Below the pieces are notes generated by a model. It did no database searches. It was not told the origin of the DNA and saw only the letters and a list, made by a program, of their open reading frames with translations. Shown here in pieces: positions 2,792-9,066 of a stretch of DNA of 12,360 bases. A program made the position numbers and the translations under genes. How positions within the stretch are numbered: the first letter of the stretch is position 1; every line of letters starts with the position of its first letter. The DNA is from a virus (Duplodnaviria; Heunggongvirae; Uroviricota; Caudoviricetes): positions 1 through 12,360 of the IMG/VR virus record IMGVR_UViG_2802429245_000001. One strand, written 5' to 3'.

Positions 2792-3265
2792 ATGACGCAA
2801 CTCGCCAGCCTGACGGCATTCATTGAAAACAATCTGCCGGCACGCGCACGCATTCCGTTCACCAGTGACATGGATGACATCACGCTCGTTCCGTTTACGA
2901 AGTCGCTGGGGCACGGGCAGTTATGTACGCAGGTTCGAAAATATACGGCTTTTCTGCGATGGGACGCATGGCCCTACCGCAAACTGAATCCGGATTTGGT
3001 GTTTTCTCTGGTTGAAGCCTGGCTGGCAGACAACGGCGGCGACCTGCGCCAGCGCCTGGCACCGGATGCGCCAGCCGTTGACGTCGAAGTGGATGATGAA
3101 AATGAAGTGGCATGGCTGGAAATCAGTCTGCCGCTGGTTGATCCCATCACCCTGGTTGAGGACGAAAACGGCCCCATCCCCAGAGGCGGGAAACGTTACC
3201 AGCTGGAAAAGCCTGAAATCTGGGTGGCTCAGGCGCATCAGCTTCACTGTCAGGTGATGCCATGA
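2792..3265 (+). CDS. Putative tail completion protein (P2 gpR-like)
   Basis: 157-aa ORF with SD AAGGA upstream of ATG 2792. Size and position (after gpL, immediately before the S-like gene, stop overlapping the next start as ATGA) fit a gpR-type tail completion protein. The assignment rests mostly on synteny. Confidence 0.45.
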   Translation: MTQLASLTAFIENNLPARARIPFTSDMDDITLVPFTKSLGHGQLCTQVRKYTAFLRWDAWPYRKLNPDLVFSLVEAWLADNGGDLRQRLAPDAPAVDVEVDDENEVAWLEISLPLVDPITLVEDENGPIPRGGKRYQLEKPEIWVAQAHQLHCQVMP

Positions 3266-3975
3266 CGCGCCCCGTGATTAACGAGTCACAACTCCGGCAG
3301 GTTCGTCGCGCCATCAGAGAGGCAGAACTTCCGCCGGCAAAGGCCAGAAAGCTGTTGGTTCGCATTGCGAAATACGGCCTGATACCGGCTGCACGACGCA
3401 ATGTGAAAGCACAGCGAACACCGGAGGGGGCAGCCTGGGCACCACGAAAAAGACCGGATAAAGCCAGCGGCAGGTATAAAAACAAAATGCTGCTGGGACT
3501 GCCGAAACTGCTGGCCATCAGGGTTGATGGCAGCGGGAAAAGTGTCCGCCTTTTCTTCAAAAAAGGGGATTACAACACCGGCTCTCATGGTGGGGCGGTT
3601 GCGTGGGTGCAACAGCACGGCGCAACCATCAAAGGCCGCGCCACAAAACGCCGGGACAGCGAAGCCATGCGCACCCGTCCCGCCACACGACGGCAGGCAG
3701 AACGCCTTCTTTCTCTGGGCTTTCGCGCCCCCGTCGGCGCGGTCAGCAAAAAAACCGGACGCAGGGGATACAGAAAACCTTCCCTGAAATGGATTATGGA
3801 AAACATGAGTATGGCGCAGGCCGGGCTGGTGATCAGCATTCTGAAAGGCGAGCAGAAAAAACGTGTATGGGAAATCAAAATTCCCTCCCGCGCATTTCTG
3901 GGAGCCAGTAACGCTGAATTTGCCCGCATTCTGGAGGCGCAATTGCGCAGCCTGCATTACGGCGGCACGAGATAA
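3262..3975 (+). CDS. Phage virion morphogenesis / tail completion protein (gpS-like), extended basic form
   Basis: 237-aa ORF whose start overlaps the upstream stop (ATGA at 3262-3265). Central VAWVQQHGATIKG and C-terminal IPSRAFLG resemble conserved motifs of the virion morphogenesis family from recall. The protein is very Arg/Lys-rich. Confidence 0.55.
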   Translation: MTRPVINESQLRQVRRAIREAELPPAKARKLLVRIAKYGLIPAARRNVKAQRTPEGAAWAPRKRPDKASGRYKNKMLLGLPKLLAIRVDGSGKSVRLFFKKGDYNTGSHGGAVAWVQQHGATIKGRATKRRDSEAMRTRPATRRQAERLLSLGFRAPVGAVSKKTGRRGYRKPSLKWIMENMSMAQAGLVISILKGEQKKRVWEIKIPSRAFLGASNAEFARILEAQLRSLHYGGTR

Positions 3976-3994
3976 CAAAATCAGGAGACAAATC

Positions 3995-5143
3995 ATGACC
4001 TGGCCATCTGTCACGATCGAACAGTACAACACATTCAGCAGTTCACCGGACGGCGTGGAAAATACACTGCTGTTTGTGGGCAATGCACAAAACAACAAAG
4101 GTAAGGTTCTGCCGGTTAACGCTAACAGCGATCTGGATGAACTGCTGGGAACGAACGCCAGCCCGCTGAAGAATTTCCTTCAGTCCGCACTGACCAATGC
4201 CGGGCAGAACGCCTTTTTCTATGTTGCCGTTCTGCCGGAAGCAGGCAGGGGCAAAGAAGCGACGCCAGCCTGCCAGGCATGGCAGAACGCCATACTGGCG
4301 GCTCAGGAAACTGTTTCAGTTGAAGGCGTGGTGATCACCGAACCGGTCAGCACGAAGGATGACATCAACGCCATACAGGCGTTACGTCAGACCATCATCA
4401 ATAAATATCAGCGCCGCATCTGGTTCATTCTGACCATTGCCGCCAATAACTGCAGCAAAACCTGGGCAGATTACGTTGCTGAACTGACCACGCTACAGGA
4501 AGGCATCGCCGCCCCGCAAATCATGCTGGTTCCGGAAATTTTTGGCTTTGAACCGGGCGTTCTTGCCGGCCGTCTGTGTAACAGCGCCGTCACCATTGCT
4601 GACAGTCCGGCGCGTGTGGCAACCGGGGGCCTGTCCGCACTGAAAACCACTGAACGCCCGAAGGACAGCGCAGGGCAGGCAATTGATCTCGCCACCCTGC
4701 AGGCACTGGCAACCGCCCGCTACAGCGTGCCCATGTGGTATGCCGACTATGACGGCCTTTACTGGGCTGACGGTGTAACACTTGAAGTGGAAGGTGGGGA
4801 CTACAACGTCATTGAGCATGTCCGCATTGCTGATAAGGTGGCGCGCCGCGTGCGGCTGATAGCCATCCCCAAGATTGCAGATCGCTCGCTGAACAGCACG
4901 CCGGGTAGCATTGCCGCACATGAAACGCTGTTTGCCCGCCCACTGCGTGCCATGGCGAAATCCACGCAAATTAACGGCATCACATTTCCGGGAGAAGTGA
5001 AATCGCCCCGGAAAGGCGACGTGGTTATCACCTGGCAGGACGAAAAGACGGTCAGCATCAGCATTGTCGTCCGCCCTTACGCCTGCCCTAAAACCATCAA
5101 AGTGGGCATTCAGCTGGATAAATCTCTGGAGGAAAACGCATGA
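3995..5143 (+). CDS. Putative contractile tail sheath protein (DUF2586-like family, non-P2 type)
   Basis: 382-aa product with SD AGGAG 7 nt upstream of ATG 3995. It sits in the canonical myovirus order sheath - tube - chaperone - tape measure. The track ORF start at 3863 overlaps the previous gene and is rejected. No clear similarity to P2 FI from recall. Confidence 0.55.
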   Translation: MTWPSVTIEQYNTFSSSPDGVENTLLFVGNAQNNKGKVLPVNANSDLDELLGTNASPLKNFLQSALTNAGQNAFFYVAVLPEAGRGKEATPACQAWQNAILAAQETVSVEGVVITEPVSTKDDINAIQALRQTIINKYQRRIWFILTIAANNCSKTWADYVAELTTLQEGIAAPQIMLVPEIFGFEPGVLAGRLCNSAVTIADSPARVATGGLSALKTTERPKDSAGQAIDLATLQALATARYSVPMWYADYDGLYWADGVTLEVEGGDYNVIEHVRIADKVARRVRLIAIPKIADRSLNSTPGSIAAHETLFARPLRAMAKSTQINGITFPGEVKSPRKGDVVITWQDEKTVSISIVVRPYACPKTIKVGIQLDKSLEENA

Positions 5144-5598: not shown

Positions 5599-5895
5599 AT
5601 GCAGGAGCATGAGCGCACCATTATCACTCTGGGCATTCTGGGCGGAATCGCTGCCGCAAGTCGGGTGCTGGCTGGCGCAGAGCCGATTACGTTGCGGTTG
5701 TTTGTGGGCCGAACCCTGCTGGGGAGCGCGCTGGGTGTTTCTGCCGCTGCCCTGCTGGTTCGCTACCCGAATCTTGACCCACTGGCCATTGCCGGCGCAG
5801 GCACCGCAATGGGCGTTGCCGGTTACCAGATTGTTGAAATCTTCCTGCGTCATATGCGCCGGAAGCTGGACGAGAAAGAGAACAAAGAGGAGTAA
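5599..5895 (+). CDS. Holin (3 predicted transmembrane segments, charged C-terminus)
   Basis: 98 aa with three hydrophobic stretches (TIITLGILGGIAAASRVLAG, LRLFVGRTLLGSALGVSAAALLV, LAIAGAGTAMGVAGYQIVEIFL) and a highly charged tail (RHMRRKLDEKENKEE). SD GGGGTGA is upstream of ATG 5599 and the gene lies just upstream of the endolysin. Confidence 0.65.
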   Translation: MQEHERTIITLGILGGIAAASRVLAGAEPITLRLFVGRTLLGSALGVSAAALLVRYPNLDPLAIAGAGTAMGVAGYQIVEIFLRHMRRKLDEKENKEE

Positions 5896-5900
5896 CCGCA

Positions 5901-6008
5901 ATGTTGTCCCGCAGGGAACAAAAAGCCGCTGCCATTGCCTGGAAAATTATCCGGGCACTGTGGTACTGGCTGCGCAAACCTCAGCAACCTCATAAGGAGC
6001 AAAAATGA
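5901..6008 (+). CDS. Small basic amphipathic peptide (35 aa), hypothetical; between holin and endolysin
   Basis: ATG 5901 is preceded by a strong SD, AGAGGAG, with an 8-nt spacer. Translation is MLSRREQKAAAIAWKIIRALWYWLRKPQQPHKEQK. The stop TGA 6006-6008 overlaps the endolysin start ATG 6005-6007. It is below the size cutoff of the ORF track. Confidence 0.35.
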   Translation: MLSRREQKAAAIAWKIIRALWYWLRKPQQPHKEQK

Positions 6009-6346
6009 AACTCTCCGATAAGCAACAACAATTTACCGTCATGATCGGAAAACTCATCCAGTTTGCCCATCAGCGCGGTTATGGCCTGACGTTCGGTGAG
6101 GCGTACCGCACGCCAGAACAGGCAAAACTCAACGCACAAAAGGGATCCGGCATTGCCAACAGCCTGCACTGCCAGCGGCTGGCCGTGGATTTTAATCTGT
6201 TTATTAACGGTGAATATCAGACCCGCACAGAGGCCTACCGCGAGCTGGGCGAGTACTGGGAATCCCTTGGTGGCGCATGGGGCGGTCGTTTTAAAAACCG
6301 CCCGGATGGCAATCATTTCAGCCTTGAGCACGACGGCGTGCGCTGA
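6005..6346 (+). CDS. Endolysin, peptidase M15 (LAS-type zinc metallopeptidase, probable L-alanyl-D-glutamate endopeptidase)
   Basis: 113 aa with a perfect SD AAGGAG 4 nt upstream of ATG 6005. Metal-binding motifs SLHCQRLAVDF (H-x6-D) and DGNHFSLEHDG resemble T5-type M15 endolysins from recall. No signal peptide or SAR segment. Confidence 0.82.
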   Translation: MKLSDKQQQFTVMIGKLIQFAHQRGYGLTFGEAYRTPEQAKLNAQKGSGIANSLHCQRLAVDFNLFINGEYQTRTEAYRELGEYWESLGGAWGGRFKNRPDGNHFSLEHDGVR

Positions 6347-6353
6347 TTTTACG

Positions 6354-6383
6354 CTTAATAAGCCTTCCTGCAGGCTTATTAAG
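6354..6383 (+). terminator. Stem-loop (11-12 bp stem) immediately after the endolysin stop; possible attenuator or terminator without a strong U-tract
   Basis: CTTAATAAGCC (6354-6364) pairs with GGCTTATTAAG (6373-6383), and the loop region contains the palindrome CCTGCAGG. It is followed by CCCTCTTATTCTTGAC rather than a clean T-run. Confidence 0.3.
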
Positions 6384-6410
6384 CCCTCTTATTCTTGACT
6401 TTAAAAGGAA

Positions 6411-6704
6411 ATGATGATGAACGATAAAAACACCCAGACTACCGCAGAGAACACCATCACTTTACAGGTCGGCGAGCATGAACTGACGTTTATCCCGACC
6501 GTAAAAGCCTACAACGACCTGCAGAACGACTTCATGCCGGATAACAAAATCGCGCCGCTGAAAAACTACCTGCGCCGTATCGTGATTAAAGAGCACCGCG
6601 ATCTGCTGAACCAGCTGCTGGAAAAACCAGGAATGCCGGCCAGCCTGGCAACAGCCGTGAATAACGAGTTTGTGCCGGAAGTGGAAATCACCGTAAAAAA
6701 ATAA
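6411..6704 (+). CDS. Tail assembly chaperone (P2 gpE-like / lambda gpG analogue)
   Basis: 97-aa ORF directly upstream of the tape measure gene, ending ...EITVKK* at a run of A residues. Three tandem ATGs lie at 6411/6414/6417 and the AAAGGA SD favours the second or third. Confidence 0.7.
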   Translation: MMMNDKNTQTTAENTITLQVGEHELTFIPTVKAYNDLQNDFMPDNKIAPLKNYLRRIVIKEHRDLLNQLLEKPGMPASLATAVNNEFVPEVEITVKK

Positions 6705-6892
6705 AAAGCCATCTGGGAGCCATTGATCGCAATGACCTTACCCGGATGCTGATTCTGCGCCGCCACTGGCTGCCCGGCGAGGATGACTCGCCGCAGTCAC
6801 TGGCTGCCGCCGTCTGGCTGGATAACCACTACTGGGAAAATATGAGCATCGCCGTCAATAACGGCATTATCCGTGCTTTTAAGGGATCGTAA
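6411..6892 (+). CDS. Tail assembly chaperone, -1 frameshift-extended isoform (gpE+E' / G-T analogue), predicted ~160 aa
   Basis: The -1 frame is open from the slippery site to TAA 6890-6892, which overlaps the tape measure ATG (TAATG). The extension reads IKSHLGAIDRNDLTRMLILRRHWLPGEDDSPQSLAAAVWLDNHYWENMSIAVNNGIIRAFKGS. Recoding at this position is conserved in the chaperones of long-tailed phages. Confidence 0.55.
6695..6701 (+). other. Candidate -1 programmed ribosomal frameshift slippery heptamer A_AAA_AAA, followed immediately by the zero-frame stop TAA
   Basis: Zero-frame codons are GTA AAA AAA TAA. The heptamer AAAAAAA at 6695-6701 allows both lysyl-tRNAs to re-pair in the -1 frame, after which the reading frame continues ATA AAA AGC and onward. 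Confidence 0.5.
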
Positions 6893-9066
6893 TGTCACAA
6901 CAGCGCCTTGAATTACTTCTTGAACTGACAGACCGCCTGACAAGGCCGTTGCGTGCAGCCGGGCGACAGGTTCAGGGATTTGCTGCAACAAGTCGGGGAG
7001 CCTTTCGGGACATTGCTACCGGAGGCGCTGCGCTCTGGGGAGTGGGTGCAGCCATTCAGGGGGCACTGATGCCAGCCATTGAAATGGACAGGGCGCTCGG
7101 TGAGGTGAAATCACTGGGCGTCGCAGAGTCCGGATTGCGTAAACTCAGCCGCGCCGCCGTTGATTTCACTATGGAATACGGCGGGGCTGCGCAGGATTTT
7201 GTGCGTGCGTCATACGACATCCAGTCAGCCATTGCCGGGTTAACTGACGATGAGCTGTCCCGCTTCACCACCGCATCAGCAACGGTGGCAGCAGCAACCA
7301 AATCCAGCAGCCAGACCATTACCGCCTACATGGGCACCATGTACGGCATCTTTAAAGACCAGGCTGATGCCATGGGAAAAAGCAAATGGGTGGAGCAGGT
7401 CGCCGGGCAAACCGCCACCGCCGTGCAAATGTTTAAAACAACCGGCGATAACATGTCAGCGGCGTTCACCACGCTGGGTGCCAGTGCAAAAGCGGCCGGT
7501 ATTGATGCGGCTGAACAGTTCGCCGTGCTGGGACAACTACAGGCCACCATGAGTGGCAGCGAGGCAGGGACGAAATACAAAGCATTTCTTGCCGCAGTAG
7601 GCAGCGCCCAGAAAAAGCTGGGGCTTAATTTCGTGAATAAAGACGGCACGATGAAAAGTGTTGTCGAGATCATGAAACTTATCAGGGGCAAATTTGGTGA
7701 TCTGTCAAAAGTGGCTGATTCCGATTTGCTGAAAAGCGCCTTTGGCTCCGATGAAGCTGTGGCCATGATTAAATTACTCAATGCGGACATTGGCGGACTT
7801 GAAAAGAATATCGCCACGCTGGGCAATATCAAAGGTATGGATAAGGCTGTCGAAATGGCACAAGCCATGGCCGATCCATGGGAACAGGCCGCTGCAATTA
7901 TTAACGGCATTCGCATCGAAATTGGCACGCAGTTGTTGCCTGTTCTGTACCCGTTTATCCAGAAAAGCAACGAAGGCGGCAAATCCTTTGTTGCCTGGTT
8001 ACGTCTGTATCCAAACATCACGCGCGCAATTGGTTTACTGGCGGGGACTTTTCTTAGCCTCGCAACCGTTGGCGCTCTCAGCAATATCATCATGGGACTG
8101 TTCAGCTTTGTAACAAAAGGGCTGATTGCCCCCGTAACAGGCTTAATAAAGCTTCTCAGGTTAAGCGCATTGCGAAATACACTGGCCGCTGCTGCAACAG
8201 GGGCTTATGCCGCTGCACAACAATATCTGAACAGGGTCATGCTGGTTTCAATGCTGACAGGACGCGGCTTTCTTACCACCATGCTGATGATGAGCGGGCC
8301 CATTCTGCTTATTGGTGCAGCCATTGCAGCAGTTGTTGCTCTTGTCTGGAAATTCTGGGAACCCATCAAAGCGTTTTTCAGCGGATTCATTCAGGGGTTC
8401 AGCGATGCATGGAAGACTATTTCACTTGGCTCTCCCATTCTGGCCGATATCGGCGCTGTTTTTGGTTTTGTATGGGATGCCATCAAAACAGCATTTAACT
8501 GGCTGATGAATTTACTCACACCGGTAGAACTGACGGGCGAAGCGTTCGGACGCGCCAGCGATGCCGGTGCGTCTTTTGGCCGTATCGTTGCCACAGCAAT
8601 CAACTGGATCCTGACGCCCACTGAAATCATGCTCGGACTGTTATCAAAAGTGTGGCAGGCCCTGCTCATTATTCTGCAGGGGTATAAGGATATCTGGAAC
8701 AGCCTGGATATTACTCACCCCCTAGATTCACTGAAAAATCTGGCTTCCGGGATCCTGGCTATTTTCAGCAACCTCTGGGAACTGGTGAAACAGTCCTTCA
8801 GTGATTCATGGGGCTGGATTGTGGACAAACTCAACATGATCCCCGGCGTTAACATCGGCACATCAGAAAGCACAGGAAGTGGCGAAGGCTCCGTATTAAC
8901 CGGCGGTAAAGCCATCAGCGCGGGGCCGGGTGGCATTGCGGCAGAAATGCAGAACAACAGCGAAAACCAGACCACCATCGACAACTCCCGTCGTGTGGTC
9001 AACGTCAATGTGCAGGATCCATCCCCTGCCCGTCTTAACGAGTGGATGGAGCTGCATGCATACTGA
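6892..9066 (+). CDS. Tail tape measure protein
   Basis: 724 aa with an Ala-rich, helical N-terminal half, central hydrophobic segments and C-terminal aromatic periodicity typical of tape measure proteins. It lies immediately downstream of the frameshifting chaperone. By the roughly 0.15 nm per residue rule this predicts a tail on the order of 100 nm (inference). Confidence 0.88.
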   Translation: MSQQRLELLLELTDRLTRPLRAAGRQVQGFAATSRGAFRDIATGGAALWGVGAAIQGALMPAIEMDRALGEVKSLGVAESGLRKLSRAAVDFTMEYGGAAQDFVRASYDIQSAIAGLTDDELSRFTTASATVAAATKSSSQTITAYMGTMYGIFKDQADAMGKSKWVEQVAGQTATAVQMFKTTGDNMSAAFTTLGASAKAAGIDAAEQFAVLGQLQATMSGSEAGTKYKAFLAAVGSAQKKLGLNFVNKDGTMKSVVEIMKLIRGKFGDLSKVADSDLLKSAFGSDEAVAMIKLLNADIGGLEKNIATLGNIKGMDKAVEMAQAMADPWEQAAAIINGIRIEIGTQLLPVLYPFIQKSNEGGKSFVAWLRLYPNITRAIGLLAGTFLSLATVGALSNIIMGLFSFVTKGLIAPVTGLIKLLRLSALRNTLAAAATGAYAAAQQYLNRVMLVSMLTGRGFLTTMLMMSGPILLIGAAIAAVVALVWKFWEPIKAFFSGFIQGFSDAWKTISLGSPILADIGAVFGFVWDAIKTAFNWLMNLLTPVELTGEAFGRASDAGASFGRIVATAINWILTPTEIMLGLLSKVWQALLIILQGYKDIWNSLDITHPLDSLKNLASGILAIFSNLWELVKQSFSDSWGWIVDKLNMIPGVNIGTSESTGSGEGSVLTGGKAISAGPGGIAAEMQNNSENQTTIDNSRRVVNVNVQDPSPARLNEWMELHAY

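What the first reader, a model, noticed from the sequence alone, without database searches (positions are those of the whole stretch)
6690..6892. Programmed -1 frameshift producing an extended tail assembly chaperone
The chaperone ORF ends at an A_AAA_AAA heptamer followed directly by TAA. The -1 frame is open for 63 further codons and terminates at a TAA overlapping the tape measure ATG. This is the classic layout of the conserved chaperone frameshift in long-tailed phages (G/GT in lambda, E/E' in P2). The slippery sequence here is a pure A-run next to the zero-frame stop, which may itself stimulate slippage.
Basis: partly seen in the sequence, partly recalled or inferred. Interest (0 to 1): 0.55.

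Follow-up and report, generated by a model that had tools for sequence, protein, structure and literature searches.

The report
Tail chaperone -1 frameshift, HP1-type prophage
This is the usual programmed -1 ribosomal frameshift that long-tailed phages use to make a short and a long tail-assembly chaperone, here in an HP1-like E. coli prophage, where databases miss it and file the shifted part as a separate protein of unknown function.

Summary
The chaperone ORF (6411/6417..6704, Pfam Phage_TAC_10) ends GTA AAA AAA TAA. The heptamer A_AAA_AAA (6695-6701) is in slip phase. The -1 frame then runs 63 codons (6701-6889) to a TAA that overlaps the tape-measure ATG (6892).

- All but two distinct sequences carry a canonical heptamer (A_AAA_AAA/C/G or G_GGA_AAG) at the same codon.
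- The -1 ORF that follows is 59-64 codons long in all but one disrupted lineage, and aligns without gaps for its first 46 codons from the slip site.
- It shows purifying selection only in that frame (pN/pS 0.51, against 1.09 and 1.25).
- It often has no possible start codon and never a Shine-Dalgarno sequence.
- The codon before the slip always ends in the base the heptamer needs.
- Local RNA structure is enriched directly 3' of the site.

The -1 ORF is Pfam DUF6890 / phrog_7050, "unknown function". None of the database records I checked annotates the shift. It works like lambda G/GT and P2 E/E+E' but has no detectable sequence homology to P2 E or E'. It is an ordinary, well-supported new member of a known kind, and its practical value is for annotation. 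No experiment has been done.

The parts
6405..6409 (+). Shine-Dalgarno sequence (AAGGA) of the chaperone gene
   Evidence: Read from the sequence. It lies 7 nt upstream of ATG 6417, the start that PGAP uses.
6411..6704 (+). Tail assembly chaperone ORF, zero frame: 97 aa from ATG 6411, more likely 95 aa from ATG 6417. The stop TAA is 6702-6704.
   Evidence: Pfam Phage_TAC_10 PF10963, E = 1.6e-26. phrog_1214. It sits immediately upstream of the tape measure gene.
6695..6701 (+). Slippery heptamer A_AAA_AAA in X_XXY_YYZ phase
   Evidence: The homologous position carries A_AAA_AAA/C/G or G_GGA_AAG in all but 2 of 181 distinct complete sequences. The preceding codon is always NNA, or GTG before GGA.
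6702..6704 (+). Zero-frame stop TAA directly 3' of the heptamer; a possible 'shifty stop' stimulator
   Evidence: The stop is adjacent in 98 of 104 distinct sequences of the first set. It is not adjacent in the Pseudomonas lineage, L033, L030 or L218.
6707..6750 (+). Predicted stem-loop 5 nt downstream of the heptamer; candidate frameshift stimulator
   Evidence: RNAfold; z = -1.6 for this sequence alone. Across 30 representatives the 45 nt directly after the slip site has mean z = -1.71, against about -0.2 elsewhere. There is no common covarying structure.
6701..6892 (+). -1 frame extension: 63 codons (6701-6889) plus TAA 6890-6892. It is translated only after the shift. The fused product is 160 aa from ATG 6411 (158 aa from ATG 6417).
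   Evidence: Pfam DUF6890 PF21830, E = 8e-24. phrog_7050. pN/pS is 0.51 in this frame against 1.09 and 1.25 in the other two. PGAP calls only 6746-6892, as a 48-aa 'DUF6890 family protein'.
6879..6884 (+). Shine-Dalgarno sequence (AAGGGA) of the tape measure gene, lying inside the last codons (F-K-G) of the extension
   Evidence: Read from the sequence. It lies 7 nt upstream of ATG 6892.
6892..9066 (+). Tail tape measure protein gene. Its ATG overlaps the extension's TAA (TAATG).
   Evidence: Pfam PhageMin_Tail PF10145, E = 8e-29. PGAP names it 'phage tail tape measure protein'.

Best explanation
A minority of ribosomes translating the chaperone mRNA slip back one base on GU-A_AAA_AAA (6695-6701). 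Either the two tRNA-Lys re-pair together from AAA-AAA to AAA-AAA, or the P-site tRNA-Lys slips while the slow-to-decode UAA waits in the A site. These ribosomes then read ATA AAA AGC ... for 63 more codons. The result is two proteins with the same N-terminus: an abundant short chaperone (95-97 aa, Phage_TAC_10) and a rare long form (158-160 aa) with a C-terminal DUF6890 domain.

By analogy with lambda gpG/gpGT and P2 gpE/gpE+E', the shared chaperone part would coat the tape measure protein, which is encoded immediately downstream and is translationally coupled by TAATG. The extension would recruit the tail tube subunit, and neither form would end up in the virion. The adjacent stop codon and a hairpin 5 nt downstream probably set the shift frequency.

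Shown here: the sequence layout, family-wide conservation of the slip site, of its phase and of the -1 ORF, and the lack of any independent start. Inferred: that the shift actually happens, how often it happens, and what the two products do.
For: 1. Layout.
2. Family assignments: TAC_10 (E = 1.6e-26), DUF6890 (E = 8e-24), and tape measure directly downstream.
3. Slip site. 217 homologous loci came from E. coli, IMG/VR, GTDB genomes and 17 GenBank phages, including HP1, K139, phiO18P, F108, ESSI-2 and phi3. Among distinct complete sequences the heptamer is A_AAA_AAC in 71, A_AAA_AAA in 29, A_AAA_AAG in 78 and G_GGA_AAG in 1, always at the same codon. Only 2 are non-canonical.
4. Nucleotide-level constraint. 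The codon before the slip is GTA, ATA or CTA even when the amino acid changes, and GTG where the motif is G_GGA_AAG. GTA makes up only 14% of Val codons elsewhere in these ORFs.
5. The -1 ORF. It is 59-64 codons long except in one disrupted lineage, and aligns without gaps for its first 46 codons from the slip site. Conserved residues (I8, N11, L13, Q15) lie upstream of the ATG that PGAP uses. pN/pS is 0.51 in this frame against 1.09 and 1.25 in the other two.
6. No independent initiation. No Shine-Dalgarno sequence precedes any candidate start. 6 of 104 distinct extensions have no ATG/GTG/TTG at all, and 50 of 104 have none in the first 20 codons.
7. RNA structure. Local structure is enriched specifically in the 45 nt after the slip site: mean z = -1.71, with 10 of 30 representatives below -2. 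This is the lowest of 43 offsets tested.
8. Motif efficiency. In E. coli, A_AAA_AAA shifts at 0.4% with no stimulator, 0.8% with the IS911 stimulators and 25% with the IS3 pseudoknot. A_AAA_AAC and A_AAA_AAG are also used by IS elements (PMC4066793, main text and supplement).
9. The experimentally established P2 E/E+E' has the same gene order and sizes: 91 and 142 aa, with the T gene overlapping the end of E' (PMC3091744).
Against: - There are no expression data for this prophage, or for any HP1-type phage, in the literature I could search.
- For this sequence alone the downstream hairpin is not significant (z = -1.6), and no single covarying structure is shared across the family.
- The open -1 frame alone could be chance (7.8% of shuffles).
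- An A7 run could also allow some RNA polymerase slippage, which would give the same protein.
- The assumed functions of the two products rest on analogy, because no sequence homology to P2 E or E' was detected. The AlphaFold model of the chaperone was too poor to compare folds (pLDDT 47).
Confidence: 0.88

Rival explanations
1. Transcriptional slippage. RNA polymerase adds one A (or drops two) in the A7 run. A fraction of mRNAs then carry the two ORFs in one frame, and normal translation gives the same VKK-IKS... fusion.
For: The run is a pure A7 homopolymer. AAAAAAA is under-represented in E. coli genes in all three frames, and transcriptional slippage is one of the proposed reasons (PMC4066793). 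Inserting one A gives exactly the same protein as a -1 ribosomal shift (sequence logic).
Against: - The homologous site is A6C in 71 distinct sequences, A6G in 78 and GGGAAAG in 1. These runs are too short, or too interrupted, for efficient polymerase slippage (established knowledge: efficient slippage needs runs of about 9 or more).
- The X_XXY_YYZ phase is strictly kept, and the base before the motif co-varies with it: A before AAA, G before GGA. Phase matters to ribosomes, not to RNA polymerase.
- A minor contribution in A7-bearing members such as this one is not excluded.
Confidence: 0.06
2. Independent small gene. DUF6890 is a separate 48-aa protein started at ATG 6746, as PGAP annotates it, and its closeness to the A-run is coincidental.
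For: PGAP annotates exactly this in E. coli. Several phage records list a short separate ORF here: phiO18P gp37, phi3 gp26, F108 Orf32, SI7 gp15 and yong1 gp39. Pfam and PHROGs treat it as its own family.
Against: - There is no Shine-Dalgarno sequence upstream of ATG 6746 or of any candidate start in 58 representatives.
- The Met is not conserved.
- 6 of 104 distinct extensions have no ATG/GTG/TTG at all, and 50 of 104 have none in the first 20 codons.
- Conservation and the gap-free register extend upstream of 6746, right back to the slip site.
- The ORF is always in the -1 frame and always overlaps or abuts the heptamer.
Confidence: 0.03
3. Decay or error. A single ancestral chaperone gene of about 160 aa was broken by a 1-nt indel in the mutation-prone A-run, either as a pseudogene or as a sequencing error.
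For: Homopolymer runs are indel hot spots. The prophage sits in a bacterial chromosome, where decay is common.
Against: - The same two-frame arrangement is found in all 181 distinct complete sequences, from Enterobacterales, Vibrionales, Pasteurellales, Aeromonadales, Alteromonadales, Pseudomonas and a Pseudodesulfovibrio genome, and in viable isolated phages such as HP1 and K139.
- No contiguous single-frame version was found when searching with the fused protein. The only exception is one deletion variant, P0005.
Confidence: 0.01

Closest known systems
Bacteriophage P2 gpE / gpE+E' (-1 frameshift at T_TTT_TTG in the FETUD operon; Christie et al. 2002, cited in PMC3091744)
   Same: - Both are Peduoviridae myoviruses with the same capsid, terminase and tail-completion gene families.
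- The chaperone gene lies directly before the tape measure gene.
[quoted passage not shown]
- Product sizes are similar: 91 and 142 aa in P2, 95-97 and 158-160 aa here.
- The end of the extension overlaps the tape measure start.
   Different: - The Pfam families differ: P2 has Phage_TAC_7 + Phage_P2_GpE, and this locus has Phage_TAC_10 + DUF6890.
- No profile-level homology was found for either part.
- The heptamer differs: T_TTT_TTG in P2 (PMC3091744), A_AAA_AAA here.
- In P2 the zero frame continues for about 20 nt past the annotated shift site. Here the stop is adjacent.
- Here lysis genes lie between the tube gene and the chaperone gene.
- P2's shift is annotated in GenBank and by PGAP. 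This one is not.
Bacteriophage lambda gpG / gpGT (G_GGA_AAG; Levin et al. 1993; Xu, Hendrix and Duda 2004, 2013, 2014, as summarised in PMC5009743)
   Same: - It is the prototype of the conserved tail-chaperone frameshift, with two products sharing an N-terminus.
- The two are made at about 30:1, both are needed for assembly, and neither is found in virions (PMC5009743).
- One family member here (L033) uses the very same heptamer, G_GGA_AAG.
   Different: - Lambda is a siphovirus. I ran no sequence comparison with gpG or gpT.
- The slip site in lambda is not next to the zero-frame stop (my own knowledge of lambda; not checked here).
- The function of the extension (binding the tail tube protein) has been shown for lambda only.
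Haemophilus phage HP1 orf26 and the unannotated 189-nt gap before orf27
   Same: It is a true homologue: about 40% identity over both pieces. It has A_AAA_AAC TAA at the same codon, a 60-codon -1 ORF and the same gene order.
   Different: The last base of the heptamer differs (C rather than A). HP1 has spanin genes between the endolysin and the chaperone, and this prophage has none. The HP1 record annotates neither the shift nor the -1 ORF. I could not check whether Xu et al. 2004 or Christie et al. 2002 already listed HP1, because neither paper is held.
IS1 / IS3-family transposase frameshifts and dnaX (A_AAA_AAC, A_AAA_AAA, A_AAA_AAG)
   Same: The slippery heptamers are the same, and so is the use of a downstream hairpin as stimulator. 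Even low-efficiency motifs are used to set a fixed product ratio (PMC4066793).
   Different: The proteins and their purpose are unrelated. I found no convincing upstream Shine-Dalgarno-like stimulator here, only GGA about 11-13 nt upstream.

Membership tests
Conserved tail-assembly-chaperone -1 frameshift of long-tailed phages (the class defined by Xu, Hendrix and Duda 2004) | Two overlapping ORFs lie between the major tail (tube) gene and the tape measure gene, directly upstream of the tape measure gene | tested here: met
   The gene order is sheath (DUF2586), tube (HP1 Orf24 family), holin, M15 endolysin, chaperone, -1 ORF, tape measure. The lysis genes are inserted between tube and chaperone, as in HP1.
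Conserved tail-assembly-chaperone -1 frameshift of long-tailed phages (the class defined by Xu, Hendrix and Duda 2004) | [quoted passage not shown] | tested here: met
   A_AAA_AAA at 6695-6701. The site is conserved as A_AAA_AAA/C/G or G_GGA_AAG in all but 2 of 181 distinct sequences. The preceding codon always ends in the matching base.
Conserved tail-assembly-chaperone -1 frameshift of long-tailed phages (the class defined by Xu, Hendrix and Duda 2004) | The downstream ORF has no translation start of its own and is conserved as a coding sequence | tested here: met
   No Shine-Dalgarno sequence was found. 6 of 104 extensions have no start codon at all. pN/pS is 0.51 in the -1 frame only. Pfam DUF6890, E = 8e-24.
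Conserved tail-assembly-chaperone -1 frameshift of long-tailed phages (the class defined by Xu, Hendrix and Duda 2004) | Both the short and the frameshifted long protein are actually made, in a fixed ratio, and both are needed for tail assembly | not testable with these tools
   This needs reporter assays, western blots or mass spectrometry, and phage genetics. No such data were found in the searchable literature.
Pfam Phage_TAC_10 (PF10963) tail assembly chaperone family | Score above the Pfam gathering threshold over the full domain | tested here: met
   92.7 bits against a cut-off of 25.7. Residues 16-97 match profile positions 1-82 of 82.
Pfam Phage_TAC_10 (PF10963) tail assembly chaperone family | Chaperone fold shared with solved or known tail assembly chaperones | tested here: inconclusive
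   The AlphaFold2 model had mean pLDDT 47 and was too poor for a fold search. A profile search of PDB sequences gave nothing below E = 0.17.
P2 gpE / gpE+E' family (Pfam Phage_TAC_7 PF10109 + Phage_P2_GpE PF06528) | Sequence homology of the chaperone part to gpE | tested here: not met
   No Pfam hit to PF10109. hhalign of a 62-sequence profile against P2 gpE gave probability 0.4%.
P2 gpE / gpE+E' family (Pfam Phage_TAC_7 PF10109 + Phage_P2_GpE PF06528) | Sequence homology of the extension to E' (PF06528) | tested here: not met
   There was no PF06528 hit even at E <= 10. hhalign of the 33-sequence extension profile against P2 E', alone and as an 11-sequence alignment, gave probability below 1%. 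A shared 'HW.P.E' string is not statistically supported.
P2 gpE / gpE+E' family (Pfam Phage_TAC_7 PF10109 + Phage_P2_GpE PF06528) | T_TTT_TTG slip site | tested here: not met
   The site here is A_AAA_AAA. P2 has TTTTTTG.

The most novel reading that the evidence does not exclude
In this chaperone family the zero-frame stop codon placed directly after a weak heptamer (A_AAA_AAA or A_AAA_AAC) is itself a selected part of the frameshift signal, a 'shifty stop'. It would work together with hairpins that each lineage evolved separately. Lineages that acquired the efficient A_AAA_AAG or G_GGA_AAG motif could then let the stop drift 21 nt downstream. If so, the family would be a natural series for working out how stop-codon pausing and heptamer strength trade off in setting a frameshift ratio. 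Separately, DUF6890 / phrog_7050 would gain a function, as the tube-recruiting domain of the long chaperone.
Probability: 0.35. Interest if true: 0.4.

Novelty: new member of a known kind. Interest (0 to 1): 0.25.

Why it matters
The biology is textbook. Almost all long-tailed phages make two tail chaperones by a -1 frameshift, so a specialist would not be surprised. The value is practical.

1. None of the HP1-type records I inspected (HP1, K139, phiO18P, F108, ESSI-2, phi3 and others, plus the PGAP annotation of E. coli) annotates the shift. Either a roughly 190-nt "gap" is left, or a truncated 47-59 aa "hypothetical protein" or "DUF6890 family protein" is called.
2. Two database families of "unknown function" (Pfam DUF6890 and phrog_7050) can now be explained as the frameshift extension of Phage_TAC_10 chaperones.
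3. The family offers a clean comparative series of slip sites (A6A, A6C, A6G, GGGAAAG, and a non-canonical GUG GGG GAG UAG), with and without an adjacent stop codon. This could be used to test how stop codons and hairpins tune frameshift efficiency.

Tried and rejected
- **Near-identity DNA search against GenBank phages.** It found only a 61-nt chance-like hit. A tblastn search with the fused protein was needed to find relatives.
- **Alignments too diverse for the search for related loci.** I used closer sets and single proteins instead.
- **A single conserved RNA structure.** RNAalifold on 30 representatives predicted no shared pairs. Inspection showed hairpins in the same region but in different registers, so I built no covariance model and rely on the positional z-score dip instead.
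- **Remote homology of DUF6890 to P2 E'.** A shared HW.P.E...SL...W string prompted the test. hhalign gave probability below 1%, so the idea was dropped.
- **Homology of the chaperone to P2 gpE.** None was found.
- **AlphaFold2 of the chaperone.** With an 11-sequence alignment the mean pLDDT was 47, so I ran no fold search.
- **Other databases.** Rfam had no match in 6300-7000. NCBIfam had no model for either part. A profile search of PDB sequences found nothing.
- **Literature.** No held paper mentions DUF6890 or an HP1-type chaperone frameshift. Christie et al. 2002 could not be retrieved, and Xu et al. 2004 is known to me only through citations in held papers, so I cannot say whether HP1 was already listed there.
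- **An upstream Shine-Dalgarno-like stimulator.** Only a weak GGA lies about 11-13 nt upstream, so I do not claim one.
Full report
**1. The observation**

- The ORF 6411..6704 ends ACC GTA AAA AAA TAA.
- The seven A's occupy 6695-6701. The first A is the third base of the Val codon, so the run is an A_AAA_AAA heptamer in the X_XXY_YYZ phase that tandem tRNA slippage needs.
- One base back, the frame reads ATA AAA AGC CAT CTG ... (IKSHLGAIDR...). It stays open for 63 codons (6701-6889).
- It stops at TAA 6890-6892, whose last A is the first base of the ATG of a 724-aa ORF.
- The chaperone most likely starts at the third ATG (6417). The AAGGA Shine-Dalgarno sequence is at 6405-6409, and PGAP chooses the same start in identical E. 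coli prophages.

On its own the open frame is not remarkable. 7.8% of shuffles of these 189 nt lack a stop in that frame, and the window has a second A7 run at 3748-3754. The case therefore rests on context and conservation.

**2. Context**

The window is the late-gene region of an HP1-like member of the Peduoviridae, integrated in E. coli. Its genes are:
- P2-family capsid, small terminase, head completion protein, and tail completion proteins R and S;
- a DUF2586 sheath and an HP1-Orf24-family tube;
- a holin and an M15 endolysin;
- the 95-97 aa ORF, which is Pfam Phage_TAC_10 (E = 1.6e-26);
- a PhageMin_Tail tape measure, then DUF2590, baseplate J and a P2-I-like protein.

The same prophage region, at 95% identity or more, is found in 41 of 5426 complete E. 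coli genomes. The translated -1 ORF matches Pfam DUF6890 (PF21830, E = 8e-24) and phrog_7050. Both are labelled "unknown function". PGAP annotates only its last 48 codons, from ATG 6746, as a separate "DUF6890 family protein", and annotates no frameshift.

**3. Comparative test**

I collected 217 homologous loci:
- the E. coli locus;
- IMG/VR contigs;
- one genome per species from GTDB, namely Edwardsiella, Symbiopectobacterium, Pseudoalteromonas, Vibrio, Shewanella, Erwinia, Kistimonas and a Pseudodesulfovibrio MAG;
- 17 GenBank phage records, including HP1, K139, phiO18P, F108, ESSI-2, PV94, SI7, SMHB1, phi3 and YenM_324.

A tblastn search with the hypothetical fused protein hit 76 phage records, each listed hit being two pieces in two frames.

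Slip site. Among 104 + 77 distinct complete sequences, the homologous codon position carries A_AAA_AAC (71), A_AAA_AAA (29), A_AAA_AAG (78) or G_GGA_AAG (1). Only two related sequences (L081, L082) lack a canonical heptamer, and they read GTG GGG GAG TAG.

The preceding codon. It is GTA, ATA or CTA, so the amino acid varies but the third base is always A. It is GTG in the one case where the motif starts with G. Elsewhere in the same ORFs, GTA accounts for only 14% of Val codons. This is a constraint on the nucleotide, not on the protein. It is the constraint expected if the P-site tRNA must re-pair one base back.

The -1 ORF. It is 59-64 codons long in all but one disrupted lineage (L053/L126). 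It aligns without a single gap through its first 46 codons, counted from the first codon after the slip site. Conserved residues include I8, N11, L13 and Q15, which lie upstream of the start codon that PGAP uses. Pairwise pN/pS is 0.51 in this frame (pS is saturated at 0.77), against 1.09 and 1.25 when the same alignment is read in the other two frames.

No independent start. None of 58 representatives has a Shine-Dalgarno sequence before any ATG/GTG/TTG in the extension. Of 104 distinct extensions, 6 have no such codon at all and 50 have none in the first 20 codons. The extension therefore cannot be an independently initiated gene, and the only access to it is from the chaperone frame.

**4. 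Stimulatory elements**

In the window, RNAfold predicts a stem-loop at 6707-6750, which starts 5 nt after the heptamer. For this one sequence the energy is not exceptional (z = -1.6).

Across 30 diverse representatives I folded 45-nt windows every 15 nt, from -240 to +390 relative to the slip site. The window starting right after the heptamer has a mean z of -1.71, and 10 of the 30 are below -2. The other 42 offsets average about -0.2, and the next lowest is -1.0. So local structure is enriched exactly where a frameshift stimulator should be.

RNAalifold finds no common structure, however. By eye, the hairpins use the same region but different registers, so each lineage seems to have its own. 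The representatives are related to each other, so this evidence is supportive rather than decisive.

The zero-frame stop directly follows the heptamer in 98 of 104 distinct sequences of the first set, as TAA, TAG or TGA. It lies 21 nt downstream in the whole Pseudomonas lineage (A_AAA_AAG) and in L033 (G_GGA_AAG). It lies 3 nt downstream in L030 and 36 nt downstream in L218, which has A_AAA_AAA.

Measured efficiencies in E. coli fit a low, tunable shift. Each motif was tested with no stimulator, with the IS911 stimulators, and with the IS3 pseudoknot (PMC4066793 supplement):

| Motif | No stimulator | IS911 stimulators | IS3 pseudoknot |
|---|---|---|---|
| AAAAAAA | 0.41% | 0.82% | 24.8% |
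| AAAAAAC | 0.16% | 0.19% | 0.74% |
| AAAAAAG | 0.29% | 4.3% | 39% |

**5. Mechanism and rivals**

The best explanation (confidence about 0.88) is a programmed -1 ribosomal frameshift. It yields an abundant 95-97 aa chaperone and a rare 158-160 aa chaperone-DUF6890 fusion. The TAATG overlap and a Shine-Dalgarno sequence (AAGGGA, 6879-6884) inside the last codons of the extension couple it to tape measure translation.

The roles of the two proteins are inferred from lambda (PMC5009743) and from the parallel layout in P2. The chaperone part would coat the tape measure, and the extension would recruit the tube protein.

The rivals are weaker.
- **Transcriptional slippage** would give the same protein. 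It does not explain the A6C, A6G and GGGAAAG variants, or the strict phase and the co-variation of the preceding base. A minor contribution at this A7 run cannot be excluded.
- **An independent gene** is contradicted by the missing start codons and Shine-Dalgarno sequences, and by conservation reaching back to the slip site.
- **A broken pseudogene or sequencing error** is contradicted by the same two-frame layout in viable isolated phages and across several bacterial orders. A search with the fused protein found no single-frame version. The only exception is P0005, a Salmonella variant that arose by a 185-nt deletion.

**6. Comparison with what is known**

In function and layout this is the conserved tail-chaperone frameshift of lambda G/GT and P2 E/E+E'. 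P2's experimentally established shift (T_TTT_TTG; E is 91 aa and E+E' is 142 aa) is annotated with a joined CDS in GenBank, and PGAP names the fused product.

By sequence, however, this locus is not a member of the P2 E/E' family. P2 is Phage_TAC_7 + Phage_P2_GpE, and this locus is Phage_TAC_10 + DUF6890. Profile comparisons give probabilities below 1% for both parts.

The true homologue is HP1 orf26 together with the unannotated 189 nt before orf27. HP1 has A_AAA_AAC TAA and a 60-codon -1 ORF there.

None of the 17 HP1-type phage records I inspected, nor PGAP, annotates the shift. I found no held paper that mentions it or DUF6890. Christie et al. 2002 could not be retrieved, and Xu et al. 2004 is known to me only through citations in held papers, so HP1 may already be listed in either. 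A fold comparison was not possible, because the AlphaFold2 model had pLDDT 47.

**7. Verdict**

It is a new, or at least unannotated, member of a well-known kind. It would not surprise a specialist, so I score interest at about 0.25.

Its use is in annotation. The chaperone ORF and "DUF6890" should be joined with a -1 shift, which would give DUF6890 and phrog_7050 a function. It also offers a natural series of slip-site variants for studying how stop codons and hairpins tune frameshift efficiency.

Noticed in passing
window 6353-6384: A perfect 13-bp inverted repeat (GCTTAATAAGCCT / AGGCTTATTAAGC, 6-nt loop) lies in the 64-nt gap between the M15 endolysin stop (6346) and the chaperone start. 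It is followed by a weak T-rich tail (CCTCTTATTC). It looks like a terminator or attenuator, or an RNA-processing or stability element, between the lysis and tail genes.
   Followed up: partly
window 6570-6577 and 6755-6762; protein P0005: A Salmonella Montevideo protein (96 aa, carrying both Pfam domains) is the N-terminal 54 or so residues of the chaperone fused in frame to the last 42 residues of the extension. This fits a 185-nt deletion between the 8-bp direct repeats CTGCGCCG (the Leu-Arg-Arg codons in both frames). It is probably a defective prophage.
   Followed up: partly
L081:1440-1460 and L082 (IMG/VR contigs): Two distant family members keep the conserved -1 ORF but have no canonical heptamer. 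The chaperone ends ACT GTG GGG GAG TAG. The shift there may use a G_GGG tetramer or some other non-standard site. Seven clusters of representative proteins also end in '...GE', and four end in '...VKE'.
   Followed up: partly
window 5895-6411, compared with L036 (HP1) and L038 (YenM_324): HP1, YenM_324, ESSI-2, phiO18P and phi3 have spanin genes between the endolysin and the chaperone. This prophage has no room for them there (6346 to 6411). Only an unannotated 35-aa ORF (5901..6008) lies between the holin and the endolysin. A 128-aa ORF (5609..5995), with no family hit, overlaps the holin in another frame.
   Followed up: no
window 3748-3754: There is a second A7 run, inside the 237-aa tail-completion (S-like) ORF 3262..3975. 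It starts at codon position 1 (AAA AAA A), so it is not in X_XXY_YYZ slip phase.
   Followed up: partly
L053 / L126 (IMGVR_UViG_2814123090_000010) and one identical duplicate locus: One lineage has a truncated, scrambled extension: 50 aa, diverging after ...ENLE. This is consistent with an indel in a decaying prophage or with an assembly error. It is the only disrupted -1 ORF among 181 distinct sequences.
   Followed up: no
window 6877-6889: The strongly conserved C-terminal A-F-K-G of the extension (GCT TTT AAG GGA) contains the Shine-Dalgarno sequence (AAGGGA) of the tape measure gene. Part of that conservation may therefore be pressure on the nucleotides rather than on the protein.
   Followed up: no
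L072 (Vibrio phage K139, NC_003313: 22798-23376): K139 orf30 is annotated as a 579-nt ORF that runs from upstream lysis-region sequence into the chaperone. RefSeq names the homologous feature in phage VPUSM 8 'Rz-like spanin'. These are probably wrong starts or wrong names for the chaperone gene.
   Followed up: no
window 3863-5143: The longest sheath ORF starts at GTG 3863 (426 aa) and overlaps the S-like gene by 113 nt. PGAP starts it at 3995 (383 aa), and the DUF2586 match begins at residue 47. The shorter start is therefore more likely.
   Followed up: no
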